Positions 18,947 through 21,384 of a stretch of DNA of 60,789 nucleotides are shown here, piece after piece (the first letter of the stretch is position 1; each line of letters opens with the position of its first letter). The stretch spans positions 1-60,789 of the forward strand of contig NZ_RJNU01000011.1 in the NCBI RefSeq assembly GCF_003942695.1, in the 5' to 3' direction. A program made the translations under genes and the position numbers. Source of the stretch: Streptococcus mitis. Lineage in GTDB: Bacteria > Bacillota > Bacilli > Lactobacillales > Streptococcaceae. Under the pieces are notes generated by a model. The model was given only the letters and a program-made list of their open reading frames with translations, had not been told where the DNA came from and searched no databases.

Positions 18947-18959
18947 GATTTTCTCCTTC

Positions 18960-19070
18960 TTAATATCCCATCATTTGAAACTGTGCTTGCATCATAGCGC
19001 ATCCCAGTTGAACACGCTCGATATCTTTTTGACTTGGTTTTCTTGTTTTCTTTTGTAAGATTCTTTTCAT
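18960..19070 (-). CDS. 36-codon ORF co-transcribed upstream of the bceAB-like genes (MKRILQKKTRKPSQKDIERVQLGCAMMQAQFQMMGY)
   Basis: Strong RBS AAGGAG with 7-nt spacing to the ATG. The stop lies 13 nt before the bceA-like RBS. Below the ORF-track cutoff and translated by hand. Confidence 0.4.
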   Translation of the reverse strand: MKRILQKKTRKPSQKDIERVQLGCAMMQAQFQMMGY

Positions 19071-19154
19071 GTTTTTGCTCCTTTGTTCTTTATGAGTCTA
19101 GTTTATCGCAAAAAAAGGCGGCCTGCCATAACCTAACCTTACAAAAGAGACTTT

Positions 19155-19176
19155 AATCTTACATTTTTGTAAGATT
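19155..19176. promoter_or_regulatory. Perfect inverted repeat AATCTTACA-tttt-TGTAAGATT (BceR-family response-regulator operator motif TNACA-N4-TGTAA)
   Basis: 9-bp perfect arms seen in the sequence, about 90 nt upstream of the minus-strand micro-ORF/bceAB operon. Extra half-site copies lie at 19055-19063 and 19137-19142. Confidence 0.5.
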
Positions 19177-19389
19177 GAGGAATTTTTTTGAAAATAGCTA
19201 CTATAAGAAGTCCTGTCATTGCTTGTTTTATTCTTAAAATAATAGTAAAATTAAATTATGAAAAGGCTTTCTTTAACATCTTTTAAAAGAATTGGCTTTC
19301 TGCTAATTATTTTTAAAAGTGCTAAACTATCATTCGTATCACTGCTATAAGGAGGGAGGTTCAGCCCCTCTTTTTAGAAAGAGGTTCCT

Positions 19390-21384
19390 ATGAAACGTGT
19401 TTTTCTCTTCATCAGCAATCTTCTTTTAACTTTCTTTCTCATTGCCACTCTGTCCTTTTGGAAAGACTCTCTTCCACAAATCCTGTTCCCGGGTGCAGCA
19501 GTATTAAGTGGGCAAGCAGATTATTCTACCGTTAAAGAAGAATTAAATAGTCTTGCTAAAGAACATAATAGTCTTATCGCAAGAACCATTTGGGAAGTAG
19601 ATAGTGATGGAAAATCACAAACTTACTACGAAGTTTTTGGAGATGGGAAACTCCCAGACTGGATGCCTCCAGCAAGTCAAGAAAGCATTCGCAAAAGCGA
19701 TCTTCTCAACAACTACAATATTATCAGCGGATCCCTAACTAGTCAAGAATTGGCCACTCATCTGAAAGAACTTGGACTAGAAAAAGCGAATGCATTTGAA
19801 AATGACAGAGTATCCTTTGTACTTGCCCTCTTTACCCAACCTGATCAGCTCATCAGTATGTTAATCTTTTTACTGACTTTCTTAGCTTTGATTGTTATTG
19901 GTCAGATTCAATCTCTTTCTCAGTCAGGGATTAGATTGATTTCTGGAGAGCGACTGAGCTATCTCTTCTTTCGTTCTCTCGCAAGAGACGGACTTGATAT
20001 CCTTCTTTTTGGTCTACCTGCTTTGCTGATAGCATGTATCTTGCTCATTTCCTTGGGATATCCTTATGAAGTTCAGACTTTTCTAGGAATACTTTTTATT
20101 CTTTACAATAGCCTACTTCTCTTACTTAGTCTTCTAATTGCCTTTCTTTTTACCATTTCTTTAAAAAAAGTCCATCTCCTCTCTATCATCAAAGGTAAAT
20201 TACCAATCAAGTCAATTCTACGCATTCTCTACTTTGGTCAGGTACTTGCCATTCTACTGGTTATTGTAGGATTTGGACGTATGTCTACTTACTATCATAT
20301 ACTTGAGAAAAATGAGGCTGGACAAGCTACTTGGGAACAACGCTCCAATGTTGTTACTCTTAAAACAGGGCGTTCCAGTCAGATGAAAAATTTAGATGAA
20401 CTGCAGACAAATGCTGATAAATGGTTTGACTTTATTCAATATTCTTTAGAAAATGGAAATGCCTTTCTAGTCAAACATAATCTCGCTATTCAAGCTATAA
20501 AACATTCTCTTTCAACTCATAATGATTCTGAACAAAATCCCTATGACTTGGAAGGGAAAAATATTCTCTATGTAACACCTGACTACTTCAAAAAAGAAGG
20601 TATAGAGTTAACATCAGAAACCTTTAAAAAAATCAATAATCTAAAAGATGGACAGGTTCTTGTAATACTACCTCAAGAACAAAAGAAAAATGAGGAACAA
20701 ATAAAACAAAACATACAAGAAGATTTAACTAATCAATTATACAGTAGTGATACAAAGCATAGAGTCGAAGTTAGTATAACTTATACTGATCAAAAAAAAG
20801 ATGTATTCATTTATAATACCACCCATATCGCTTATGATCAATGGTTATTAAATCCCATCTTTCTTGTGCTTTCTCCTAAAGCACTTGGTAAGGTTTCCTC
20901 CATCTTCTGGTTTACAAATCTAGAATATCTCTATTTTACAGACCTCCACCAGACACAAGAACTTTTGAAACACTATCAACTTGATCAAATGGTCTCAGGA
21001 CTATCGTCTGCTAGGGAAACCTATCTCCAGTTAAATCAAAAAATTAAAATCGAAATTTTTAGTAACTTAGCGAGTGCTATGTTTGCTATTTTGACTTCAA
21101 TTTTGCTGTTTACAAGTTTAAATCTGCTCTATTTTGAAGCCTTTCGCAAAACCATATTCTTGAAAAAAATAGCAGGCTATTATTTCTTTGAATTACACAA
21201 TAGATATATCACTTCTCAAATAGCAGCTCTCTTTCTCGGAAGTAGTCTAGCTTTCATTATTTCTAAGAATATCTGGATTACCCTGATCCTATTTTTCAGC
21301 TTTTTAAGTTTAGCCGTTCTTCTATTGAAGATCTTTGATAAGAAGGAAAGCAAAACCTATGTTAGCATTATCAAAGGAGGATAG
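19390..21384 (+). CDS. Large integral membrane ABC permease (DUF1430/bacteriocin-associated integral membrane protein-like, FtsX-like C-terminus)
   Basis: 664 aa. It has an N-terminal TM, an extracytoplasmic domain, a cluster of TMs and a C-terminal FtsX-like 4-TM region. Its stop lies 1 nt before the ATPase start. Confidence 0.65.
   Translation: MKRVFLFISNLLLTFFLIATLSFWKDSLPQILFPGAAVLSGQADYSTVKEELNSLAKEHNSLIARTIWEVDSDGKSQTYYEVFGDGKLPDWMPPASQESIRKSDLLNNYNIISGSLTSQELATHLKELGLEKANAFENDRVSFVLALFTQPDQLISMLIFLLTFLALIVIGQIQSLSQSGIRLISGERLSYLFFRSLARDGLDILLFGLPALLIACILLISLGYPYEVQTFLGILFILYNSLLLLLSLLIAFLFTISLKKVHLLSIIKGKLPIKSILRILYFGQVLAILLVIVGFGRMSTYYHILEKNEAGQATWEQRSNVVTLKTGRSSQMKNLDELQTNADKWFDFIQYSLENGNAFLVKHNLAIQAIKHSLSTHNDSEQNPYDLEGKNILYVTPDYFKKEGIELTSETFKKINNLKDGQVLVILPQEQKKNEEQIKQNIQEDLTNQLYSSDTKHRVEVSITYTDQKKDVFIYNTTHIAYDQWLLNPIFLVLSPKALGKVSSIFWFTNLEYLYFTDLHQTQELLKHYQLDQMVSGLSSARETYLQLNQKIKIEIFSNLASAMFAILTSILLFTSLNLLYFEAFRKTIFLKKIAGYYFFELHNRYITSQIAALFLGSSLAFIISKNIWITLILFFSFLSLAVLLLKIFDKKESKTYVSIIKGG

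What the first reader, a model, noticed from the sequence alone, without database searches (positions are those of the whole stretch)
18947..19392. Divergent control region between two peptide-resistance-type ABC transporters carrying a perfect BceR-family operator
A BceAB-like transporter (minus strand) and a DUF1430-type permease/ATPase pair (plus strand) diverge from a 440-bp region. The region contains a perfect 9-4-9 palindrome AATCTTACA-tttt-TGTAAGATT at 19155-19176, matching the TNACA-N4-TGTAA motif reported for BceR-like regulators. Further TGTAAGA half-sites lie at 19055-19063, 19137-19142 and 19158-19163; two of them are spaced 21 bp apart. No two-component system is encoded nearby, so an unlinked regulator (pneumococcal TCS01-like) would be needed. 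The same palindrome sits about 80 nt upstream of the plus-strand unit and could co-regulate both transporters.
Basis: partly seen in the sequence, partly recalled or inferred. Interest (0 to 1): 0.6.

Follow-up and report, generated by a model that had tools for sequence, protein, structure and literature searches.

The report
Known BceR operator of bceAB
The palindrome is real, but it is the Streptococcus oralis copy of a regulator-binding site already described in S. pneumoniae that switches on a bacitracin/nisin-resistance pump, and the neighbouring second transporter is an optional inserted cassette with its own promoter.

Summary
The perfect 9-4-9 palindrome at 19155-19176 is confirmed. 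The window is Streptococcus oralis, and the site is the ortholog of the S. pneumoniae RR01 (TCS01/BceR) operator. That operator was published in 2022 with EMSA and confirmed by a motif search and RNA-seq in 2024. Sequence and geometry agree: 226/227 nt before bceA, 103 nt before a 36-aa leader ORF (SPV_2246 ortholog), and centred at -72.5 from a transcription start that matches the mapped D39V start.

Across 78 mitis-group loci the palindrome core never varies. It sits in an invariant ~52-nt block that also holds a second TGTAAG half-site 20 bp downstream and a -35-like hexamer.

The co-regulation idea is not supported. The DUF1430/ATPase pair is a lactococcin-972-type immunity transporter. 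It lies on a 2.96-kb presence/absence cassette (28 of 80 loci) whose edge is 2-7 nt beyond the palindrome. Other strains carry unrelated cargo or nothing there. The cassette has its own promoter, orthologous to a mapped divergent start in D39V that is not among the published RR01-induced operons. It has no half-site on its side.

Two of the three extra "half-sites" do not hold up. The core claim is correct but already known, so interest is low.

The parts
19155..19176 (.). Main operator: perfect inverted repeat AATCTTACA-N4-TGTAAGATT. Inferred binding site for a dimer of the RR01/BceR ortholog, centred at -72.5 from the bceAB-operon start.
   Evidence: The core ATCTTACAAAAATGTAAGAT is invariant in 78/78 mitis-group loci at -226/-227 from the bceA ATG. 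It is identical to the top FIMO hit for RR01 in D39V, CTTACAAAAATGTAAGATTA.
19138..19143 (-). Secondary half-site TGTAAG (minus strand), in the same orientation as the promoter-proximal arm and 20 bp downstream of it, centred about -47.5.
   Evidence: Invariant in 80 aligned sequences. Identical to the second FIMO hit in D39V, CTTACAAAAGAGACTTTAAT.
19124..19129 (-). -35-like hexamer ATGGCA (4 of 6 matches), 18-nt spacer.
   Evidence: Read from the sequence. It is part of the invariant block TTATGGCA. Inference.
19100..19105 (-). -10 hexamer TAAACT (4 of 6 matches). This is a weak promoter of the kind that depends on an activator.
   Evidence: Conserved in at least 95% of sequences. Its position fits the mapped D39V start.
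19093..19093 (-). Inferred transcription start of the smallORF-bceA-bceB operon, 23 nt upstream of the small-ORF ATG.
   Evidence: D39V operon_334 starts at 821460, 23 nt before the SPV_2246 ATG at 821483. The geometry is colinear: 103 nt from CTTACA to the ATG in all 79 sequences here and in the D39V FIMO coordinates.
18960..19070 (-). 36-aa ORF MKRILQKKTRKPSQKDIERVQLGCAMMQAQFQMMGY, the ortholog of D39V SPV_2246 and first gene of the operon. Function unknown.
   Evidence: Intact at 36 aa in 79/79 sequences, with the invariant core KDIERVQLGCAMMQ. Preceded by the Shine-Dalgarno sequence AAAGGAG. SPV_2246 is 111 nt and rises by log2FC 9.3 on rr01 overexpression.
18188..18946 (-). bceA, the ABC ATPase.
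   Evidence: Pfam ABC_tran 2.6e-36. 98-100% identical across the loci.
16198..18186 (-). bceB, a BceAB-type FtsX permease of 662 aa.
   Evidence: Pfam FtsX, two stretches. PDB PsdB 9ugg 1.3e-44 and BceB 7tcg 1.9e-40. Same length as SPV_0805 (1989 nt).
19184..22139 (+). Accessory cassette, not part of the core bceAB unit. It holds its own promoter and leader, a DUF1430/TIGR01654 permease (19390-21384) and a TIGR03608 ATPase (probable start 21386, stop 22036), followed by a terminator hairpin at about 22044-22077.
   Evidence: Homology with cassette-less loci stops at 19178-19183 and resumes at 22140. Present in 28 of 80 genome loci. NCBIfam scores are above cut-off. for the hairpin and the start codon.
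19223..19258 (+). Cassette promoter TTGTTT-17-TAAAAT (19246-19251), with an inferred start at about 19258, which is the A of the ATG of a 30-aa ORF.
   Evidence: The -10 and the first ~25 transcribed nt are homologous to the D39-like S. mitis alleles. In those alleles the same -10 lies 7 nt before the mapped D39V minus-strand start 821306.

Best explanation
The window is from Streptococcus oralis. The palindrome at 19155-19176 is the operator of the smallORF-bceA-bceB operon and the ortholog of the S. pneumoniae RR01 (TCS01, BceR-type OmpR-family) binding site.

Mechanism. Steps 1-3 are established for the family and for S. pneumoniae and are inferred here by orthology.
1. Lipid II- or undecaprenyl-pyrophosphate-binding peptides such as bacitracin, nisin and actagardine are sensed by basal BceAB.
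2. BceAB activates an unlinked intramembrane-sensing kinase, which phosphorylates the response regulator.
3. The regulator dimer binds the inverted repeat (-83 to -62). A further protomer probably binds the invariant TGTAAG half-site at about -47.
4. This recruits RNA polymerase to the weak promoter ATGGCA-18-TAAACT. Transcription starts at about 19093 and runs through the 36-aa ORF, bceA and bceB to the hairpin at 16168-16191.

Action is most likely unidirectional. The divergent DUF1430/ATPase pair is a lactococcin-972-type orphan immunity transporter. It is carried on a 2.96-kb presence/absence cassette that ends 2-7 nt from the palindrome and is transcribed from its own sigma-70-type promoter (-10 at 19246-19251, start about 19258).
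For: Organism and orthology.
- bceB is 99% identical to S. oralis strains.
- Gene order Tex-SprT-PspC-[slot]-36aaORF-bceA-bceB and the gene lengths equal D39V SPV_0802-0805 plus SPV_2246.

Published function in S. pneumoniae.
- The TNACA-N4-TGTAA signature lies 227 bases before bceA, and RR01(D52E) shifts the -242..+335 fragment.
- Bacitracin induction of bceAB depends on tcs01.
- rr01 overexpression raises SPV_2246/0804/0805 by log2FC 9.3/10.1/10.3.
- The FIMO hits are identical to the window sequence.

Conservation.
- The palindrome core is invariant in 78/78 loci at a fixed distance.
- The invariant ~52-nt block covers the palindrome, the second half-site and the -35. It is more conserved than the adjacent coding DNA.

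Transcription start and regulator.
- The D39V start at 821460 is 23 nt before SPV_2246, matching the -10 found here.
- TCS01 is recorded as present in the two S. oralis genomes whose rows of Table S3 I saw.
- No response regulator lies in the window.

Cassette.
- Homology breakpoints at 19178-19183 and 22140.
- Allele census and unrelated alternative cargo.
- Own promoter orthologous to the D39V minus-strand start 821306.
- No TGTAAG/CTTACA on the cassette side.
Against: - Nothing was measured in S. oralis. Binding and induction are transferred from S. pneumoniae by orthology.
- The published EMSA used a 557-bp fragment without a footprint or operator mutations, so base-level assignment of the site rests on motif and conservation.
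- The cognate TCS of this particular strain cannot be seen in the window.
- The role of the second half-site is inferred. The B. subtilis precedent (Fang et al. 2017) is recalled from my own knowledge; the paper was not available.
- Unidirectionality rests on indirect evidence. The SPV_2245 row of the RNA-seq table could not be retrieved.
Confidence: 0.85

Rival explanations
1. Bidirectional operator. The same RR01/BceR-bound palindrome also activates or modulates the divergent promoter at about 19258, so the lactococcin-972-type immunity transporter is co-induced with BceAB by cell-wall-active peptides.
For: - The palindrome edge is only 82 nt from the inferred cassette start.
- A divergent promoter next to the operator exists in two different allele types. 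Its palindrome-to-start distances are 81.5 (D39V) and 92.5 (window), which differ by 11 bp, about one helical turn.
- Both transporters relate to lipid II-targeting peptides. Lcn972 binds lipid II, and a Bce-like module protects L. lactis against it (titles and abstracts).
Against: - The cassette is present in only 28 of 80 loci, and its edge abuts the palindrome.
- Other alleles put a terminator, candidate defence genes or nothing there.
- The second half-site and the invariant block lie only on the bceAB side, with no half-site towards the cassette.
- The cassette promoter has a good -10 (TAAAAT) and was detected as a start in uninduced D39V.
- The divergent unit SPV_2245 is not among the six RR01-specific differentially expressed operons.
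- Proteomics found only BceAB induced, although D39/R6 lacks this cassette.
- Two data points for helical phasing are weak evidence.
Confidence: 0.11
2. RNA hairpin or intrinsic terminator. The palindrome acts at the RNA level, as a 13-bp stem followed by AATTTTTTTG on the + strand.
For: The terminator scan flags 19151-19180 plus a T-run. The predicted hairpin has -15.1 kcal/mol, z = -4.8.
Against: - The stem has only 3 G-C pairs.
- No + strand gene lies upstream for it to terminate.
- The T-run (19183-19189) lies outside the conserved block and is absent from non-cassette alleles, which read ...GATATTCTTC next to the palindrome.
- On the minus strand the palindrome lies upstream of the mapped start and has no T-run.
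- Real terminators in this locus are G+C-rich, for example AACCCTTGcatccgCAAGGGTTTTCTT and the hairpins at 16168 and 22047.
- No Rfam match.
Confidence: 0.02
3. The site serves something other than BceR, either another regulator such as WalR or a recombination site that defines the edge of the variable slot.
For: All structural variants break within a few nt of the palindrome. The TGTAAG half-sites resemble the WalR half-site TGTWAH (my own knowledge).
Against: - WalR boxes are direct repeats with 11-bp periodicity. Here the arms are inverted with a 4-nt spacer, and the third half-site is 20 bp away.
- No integrase or transposase, and no duplicated flank, was found at the cassette ends.
- The sharp breakpoint is what purifying selection on an operator next to freely varying DNA would give.
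- RR01 overexpression alone induces the operon about 1000-fold.
Confidence: 0.02

Closest known systems
S. pneumoniae RR01 (TCS01/BceRS-type) operator upstream of spv_2246-bceAB (spr0812/0813; SPV_0804/0805). Sources: Diagne et al. 2022, PMC9020739, and the 2024 TCS-network study, PMC11034029.
   Same: The operator and second half-site have identical sequence (CTTACAAAAATGTAAGATTA and CTTACAAAAGAGACTTTAAT). The distances match: 103 nt to the small ORF and 226/227 nt to bceA. The leader ORF has the same 36-aa length, the start position is the same, the flanking genes (pspC-like, SprT, Tex) are the same, and the two-component system is unlinked in both.
   Different: The species differs (S. oralis) and nothing has been measured in it. 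The DNA beyond the distal edge of the palindrome also differs. Here it is a lactococcin-972-type transporter cassette, whereas D39V has a 64-aa-type membrane-protein gene (SPV_2245).
B. subtilis BceR and the PbceA promoter, and the Firmicutes BceR-like consensus TNACA-N4-TGTAA (Ohki 2003; Dintner 2011; Fang 2017).
   Same: An OmpR-family activator, an inverted repeat with an A/T spacer upstream of a weak promoter of a BceAB-type transporter operon, and an extra promoter-proximal site. The extra site in B. subtilis is from my own knowledge of Fang et al. 2017.
   Different: In B. subtilis bceRS is adjacent to bceAB, whereas here the TCS is unlinked. Here a small ORF precedes bceA.
S. mutans BceR (MbrC) motif TTACAA-N2-TTGTAA.
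   Same: The same core when read as TTACAA-AA-TGTAAG. The 2024 study cites it as similar to the RR01 motif.
   Different: In S. mutans the TCS and transporter are in one operon and both are induced.
Lactococcin-972-like 'streptococcin' loci (scbABC) of S. pneumoniae, PMC11796350.
   Same: The + strand pair has the B/C architecture: a TIGR01654 membrane protein plus a TIGR03608 ATPase.
   Different: No bacteriocin (A) gene is present, so the pair is orphan, as in D39-type scbBC. The regulators known for scb (ComE, ComR-type) have no recognisable site here. The location next to the bceAB operator is specific to some S. oralis strains.

Membership tests
BceR-type response-regulator operator of a Bce module | Inverted repeat TNACA-N4-TGTAA with an A/T-rich 4-nt spacer | tested here: met
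   TTACA-TTTT-TGTAA sits within a perfect 9-4-9 palindrome. The consensus is quoted in PMC9020739.
BceR-type response-regulator operator of a Bce module | Lies upstream of the promoter of a BceAB-type transporter operon | tested here: met
   Centred at -72.5 from the inferred start, which is colinear with the mapped D39V start. The downstream genes are BceAB-type.
BceR-type response-regulator operator of a Bce module | Conserved in orthologous promoters | tested here: met
   Invariant core in 78/78 loci at a fixed distance, within an invariant ~52-nt block.
BceR-type response-regulator operator of a Bce module | A cognate BceRS-type two-component system is present in the genome | not testable with these tools
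   None in the 60.8-kb window. Table S3 of PMC11034029 scores TCS01 as present in the two S. oralis genomes whose rows were seen. This strain's genome is not available.
BceR-type response-regulator operator of a Bce module | The regulator binds the DNA in vitro | not testable with these tools
   Shown for the S. pneumoniae ortholog on a 557-bp fragment that contains the site. No footprint is available.
BceR-type response-regulator operator of a Bce module | Peptide-antibiotic induction of the operon that depends on the TCS | not testable with these tools
   Shown in S. pneumoniae by qPCR, GFP fusion, proteomics and rr01 overexpression.
BceAB-type ABC transporter | Permease of about 650 aa with FtsX domains, homologous to BceB/PsdB, paired with an upstream ATPase gene | tested here: met
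   662 aa with two FtsX stretches. PDB PsdB 1.3e-44 and BceB 1.9e-40 over residues 6-620. ATPase gene directly upstream.
BceAB-type ABC transporter | Large extracellular domain between TM7 and TM8 | not tested
   No topology or structure prediction was run.
Lactococcin-972-type immunity/transport pair | TIGR01654 membrane protein plus TIGR03608 ATPase, both above the curated cut-offs | tested here: met
   233.1 bits against a cut-off of 189.35, and 287.4 bits against 254.85. Pfam DUF1430.
Lactococcin-972-type immunity/transport pair | Adjacent lactococcin-972-family bacteriocin gene | tested here: not met
   Only a 30-aa ORF with no family hit lies upstream. The gap from palindrome to DUF1430 start is about 200-300 nt in every locus where the palindrome was found upstream, too short for a ~90-aa gene. 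The pair is therefore orphan.
Intrinsic terminator | G+C-rich stem, conserved T-run, position downstream of a co-oriented gene | tested here: not met
   3 G-C pairs of 13. The T-run is specific to cassette alleles. No upstream + strand gene.

The most novel reading that the evidence does not exclude
The operator may flank a conserved divergent promoter whose cargo differs between strains: a lactococcin-972-type immunity ABC transporter in about a third of S. oralis-group genomes, and a 64-aa two-TM protein (SPV_2245 type) in S. pneumoniae and some S. mitis. RR01~P bound at the palindrome would then also tune this promoter from -81.5 or -92.5, positions one helical turn apart. On this reading the site is a peptide-antibiotic-inducible 'cargo slot' that couples exchangeable immunity genes to the BceAB sensor.
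Probability: 0.1. Interest if true: 0.5.

Novelty: already known. Interest (0 to 1): 0.18.

Why it matters
The result shows that a sequence-only reader correctly rediscovered a validated operator. The TCS01-BceAB circuit of S. pneumoniae, which contributes to bacitracin, nisin and actagardine resistance and to virulence, is conserved base for base in the commensal S. oralis.

The modest added value has three parts:
- A base-level promoter architecture supported by 80-genome footprinting and a mapped start: main site, second half-site at +20 bp, weak -35/-10, and a 36-aa leader ORF.
- The observation that the DNA just beyond the operator is a hot spot for exchangeable cargo.
- A clear, cheap experiment that would decide whether that cargo is wired to the same sensor.

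If co-regulation were real, it would show how accessory immunity genes can be plugged into an existing antimicrobial-peptide sensing circuit.

Tried and rejected
- **Terminator reading of the palindrome.** Flagged by the scan and stable when folded. Rejected because the T-run is allele-specific and nothing upstream needs terminating.
- **Known RNA families.** Rfam gave nothing credible in 18800-19500. The whole window yielded only a tRNA.
- **Half-site at 19054-19060.** It lies in codons 3-5 of the 36-aa ORF and varies (L to S/I, Q to H) among strains. Rejected as an operator element.
- **A two-component system in the window.** None found.
- **The cassette in another genomic context, to test promoter autonomy.** All 33 metagenome loci that extend far enough show the cassette in the same bceAB/pspC context. 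The one apparently divergent copy (L112, 60% identity) is an indel-ridden assembly with near-identical DNA. This was uninformative.
- **The 30-aa ORF as a bacteriocin remnant or leader peptide.** It is intact in 25 of 28 cassette-bearing sequences. In D39-like alleles the homologous stretch starts with GTG and gives an unrelated ~20-aa frame. It has no family hit. Left open, and probably just 5' UTR.
- **Primary papers.** Dintner 2011 is not held. Fang 2017 was not found in the searches and appears only as a reference.
- **SPV_2245 expression under rr01 overexpression.** Not retrievable, because Table S5 is cut in the stored copy.
- **WalR box.** Rejected on geometry.
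Full report
**Observation.** The sequence AATCTTACA-TTTT-TGTAAGATT lies at exactly 19155-19176. It is the only match in the window even with three mismatches, and none of 100 dinucleotide-preserving shuffles produced one. It contains TTACA-N4-TGTAA. The loose 14-mer motif alone would occur 0.7 times per window by chance. The heptamer TGTAAGA is not enriched, with 9 found against 10.7 expected. 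Perfect 9-bp-arm hairpins are not rare either, with 3 in the window against about 2 in shuffles. The case therefore rests on the full 22-mer, its context and its conservation. On the minus strand lie an ABC ATPase (18188-18946) and a 662-aa FtsX permease (16198-18186). On the plus strand lie a DUF1430 protein (19390-21384) and a second ATPase. CTTACA at 19158-19163 is an arm of the palindrome itself. TGTAAGA at 19054-19060 lies inside a small ORF. Only CTTACA at 19138-19143 is independent, and it is 20 bp, not 21 bp, from the arm.

**Organism and orthology.** A scan of one genome per species with the permease returned 80 loci. The best are S. oralis at 99% identity, followed by the rest of the S. 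oralis/S. mitis group. The gene order is Tex, SprT-like, PspC-domain, then the small ORF, bceA and bceB. It matches S. pneumoniae D39V SPV_0802, SPV_2244, SPV_0803, SPV_2246, SPV_0804 and SPV_0805, down to gene lengths of 111 nt for SPV_2246 and 1989 nt for SPV_0805. The permease is homologous to the solved B. subtilis PsdB and BceB structures.

**What is already published.**
- Diagne et al. [quoted passage not shown]
- They show that RR01(D52E) shifts a fragment from -242 to +335 and that bacitracin induction of bceAB needs TCS01. [quoted passage not shown]
- In the window the motif starts 226 nt before the bceA ATG. In the S. mitis loci it starts 227 nt before.
- The 2024 network study (PMC11034029) overexpressed rr01 and found SPV_2246, SPV_0804 and SPV_0805 up by log2FC 9.3, 10.1 and 10.3. 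It names the operon spv_2246-bceAB and derives an RR01 motif.
- Its two best hits upstream of SPV_2246 are CTTACAAAAATGTAAGATTA and CTTACAAAAGAGACTTTAAT. Both strings are identical in the window and at the same offset, 103 nt from CTTACA to the small-ORF ATG.
- Its Table S3 scores TCS01 as present in the two S. oralis genomes whose rows I saw.
- No receiver-domain protein is encoded in the window, so the regulator is unlinked, as in pneumococcus.

**Anatomy from comparative footprinting.**
- In 78 of 78 loci with an intact bceA start, the core ATCTTACAAAAATGTAAGAT is invariant and at a fixed distance.
- An alignment of 80 sequences shows an invariant block of about 52 nt, from 19174 to 19124 on the minus strand.
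- The block comprises the palindrome, the spacer, a second TGTAAG half-site (19143 to 19138, same orientation as the proximal arm) and TTATGGCA. It is better conserved than the neighbouring coding DNA.
- Downstream of it lies a conserved TAAACT (19105-19100).
- Reading ATGGCA-18-TAAACT as a weak promoter puts the start at about 19093, 23 nt before the ATG of the 36-aa ORF.
- The D39V annotation (PMC6212727) lists operon_334 as starting at 821460, exactly 23 nt before SPV_2246 at 821483.
- The palindrome is therefore centred at -72.5 and the second half-site at about -47.5, next to the -35. This layout is typical of OmpR-family activators. As far as I recall, it parallels the main-plus-secondary site arrangement of B. 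subtilis BceR-like promoters (Fang et al. 2017, not available here).
- The 36-aa ORF is intact in 79 of 79 sequences, with the invariant core KDIERVQLGCAMMQ. Its function is unknown.

**The plus-strand unit.**
- The DUF1430 protein scores above cut-off for TIGR01654 (bacteriocin-associated integral membrane protein). The ATPase scores above cut-off for TIGR03608 (lactococcin-972-type ABC).
- No lactococcin-972-like bacteriocin gene accompanies them, so the pair is orphan. This resembles the D39-type scbBC remnant described for pneumococcal streptococcin B.
- Only 28 of 80 genome loci carry the pair.
- In loci without it, homology to the window runs from bceA up to 19178-19183, which is 2-7 nt beyond the palindrome. 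It resumes exactly at the stop codon of the PspC-domain gene at 22140.
- The slot holds at least six other states:
  - 130-150 nt with a G+C-rich terminator;
  - 360 nt;
  - 530-600 nt with a 64-aa two-TM ORF;
  - 2.7-2.9 kb encoding 218-aa and 502-aa proteins, the latter hitting the PADLOC candidate PDC-M09B;
  - 3.8 kb encoding 563-aa, 240-aa and AAA-ATPase proteins;
  - 4.3 kb.
- The juxtaposition of the two transporters is therefore a strain-variable accident of a hot spot, not a fixed divergent operon pair.
- A metagenome scan found the cassette only in this same context. One apparently divergent copy is an error-rich assembly.

**The cassette has its own promoter.**
- S. mitis loci of the 530-600-nt class carry the exact string that FIMO reports from D39V (ATTTTACAACTTTAAAAATA). 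On the other strand this string contains TAAAAT, 58 nt from the palindrome edge.
- The D39V minus-strand start 821306 (operon_333, SPV_2245) lies 7 nt after it.
- The window has a homologous stretch at 19245-19274: GTAAAAT, then 6 nt, then ATGAAAAGGCTT.
- Its -10 is therefore TAAAAT at 19246-19251, with TTGTTT 17 nt upstream. The start is at about 19258, which is the first base of a 30-aa ORF.
- The leader down to the DUF1430 ATG folds into hairpins, one of which covers the Shine-Dalgarno sequence (z = -2.3). I could not decide whether this is regulatory.
- No TGTAAG or CTTACA lies on the cassette side of the palindrome.
- The six RR01-specific differentially expressed operons listed for D39V are SPV_2246, pavB, hsdR, SPV_0119, axe1 and SPV_0537. 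They do not include SPV_2245. The actual fold change could not be read because the stored table is cut.

**Rival readings.**
- As RNA the palindrome would form a -15 kcal/mol hairpin followed by a T-run on the plus strand. The stem is A+T-rich, the T-run belongs to the cassette and is missing in other alleles, and no gene upstream needs terminating. I reject this reading.
- Rfam finds nothing in the region.
- A WalR box is excluded by geometry.
- Bidirectional control cannot be excluded. Its only support is proximity, a shared theme of lipid II-targeting peptides, and the fact that the palindrome-to-divergent-start distances in the two allele types (81.5 and 92.5) differ by one helical turn. 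I put it at about 0.1.

**Verdict.** The added claim of co-regulation is not supported. Novelty: already known. Interest: low.

Noticed in passing
window 19184-22139; loci L001-L080 between the PspC stop and the palindrome: The DNA between the pspC-like gene and the bceAB operator is a polymorphic slot with at least seven states in 76 classifiable genomes. These are: Lcn972-type cassette (26), 130-150 nt (23), 360 nt (10), 530-600 nt (3), 2.7-2.9 kb (5; the 502-aa protein hits PADLOC PDC-M09B at 3e-10), 3.8 kb (8; includes an AAA ATPase with a weak IetA-like hit) and 4.3 kb (1). No integrase or flank duplication was seen.
   Followed up: partly
window 18960-19070 (-): A conserved 36-aa hydrophilic ORF (SPV_2246 ortholog) is the first gene of the bceAB operon. 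It is intact in 79/79 sequences, with the invariant core KDIERVQLGCAMMQ and a variable basic N-terminus. It has no family match and its function is unknown. In pneumococcus it is co-induced about 600-fold with bceAB.
   Followed up: partly
window 19258-19389 (+): The inferred cassette transcript starts at the ATG of a 30-aa ORF (MKRLSLTSFKRIGFLLIIFKSAKLSFVSLL), which would make it leaderless. Its leader folds into hairpins, including GAGGG..CCCTC followed by T5, and CCTCTTT/AAAGAGG over the DUF1430 Shine-Dalgarno sequence. This could be an attenuator. The ORF is broken in 3 of 28 cassette-bearing sequences and is not conserved in D39-like alleles.
   Followed up: partly
L009, L016, L018, L001, L036 and others, about 30-110 nt upstream of the palindrome: Non-cassette alleles carry a G+C-rich terminator (AACCCTTGcatccgCAAGGGTTTTCTT). 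It is followed by an extended -10-like TGgTAAAAT or TGgTACAAT pointing towards the operator and bceAB. This could give basal, regulator-independent bceAB transcription. It is absent from this window.
   Followed up: no
L074, L075, L078, L079 (S. mitis), divergent from the operator: D39-like alleles encode a 64-65-aa two-TM protein (MKHKEHILIGLLYLLSPFIGQ...). By position, length and the shared FIMO string it is probably the SPV_2245 type. It is read from the promoter whose -10 is conserved in this window's cassette, and it looks like a small bacteriocin-immunity-type protein. These alleles also have an extra TGTAAG 17 bp beyond the palindrome arm on the divergent side.
   Followed up: no
window 22473-22488 (-): TCGGCCTAAGGACTGA lies upstream of the PspC-domain gene, whose true start is probably the ATG at 22413. 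It matches the VraR/LiaR box reported for spv_0803 (TCAGCCTGAGGACTGA). A LiaR-type and a BceR-type envelope-stress target therefore sit side by side.
   Followed up: partly
window 15414-16157 (+) and 16168-16191: A VIT1-family gene converges on bceB, and a perfect hairpin with T-runs on both sides lies between them as a bidirectional terminator. In D39V the gene after bceB (SPV_0806) rises by log2FC 4.8 on rr01 overexpression, possibly through read-through.
   Followed up: no
window 18188-18946 (-): BceA itself scores above the curated cut-off of TIGR03608 'L_ocin_972_ABC' (263 bits against 254.85). That NCBIfam model therefore does not discriminate Lcn972-type ATPases from BceA-type ATPases.
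   Followed up: no
window 11473-15228 (-); 44257-44328 (-): A Dyp-type peroxidase and an imelysin (Peptidase_M75) gene lie in a row, resembling an EfeB/EfeO-like iron-uptake cluster. A single tRNA gene is the only Rfam hit in the window.
   Followed up: no
L112, L094, L096, L100 and other BNJ* metagenome contigs; L046: Several metagenome loci show fragmented ORFs and low protein identity although their DNA is nearly identical, which points to indel-rich assemblies. L046 has a run of N across the operator region. These loci should not be used for presence/absence calls.
   Followed up: partly
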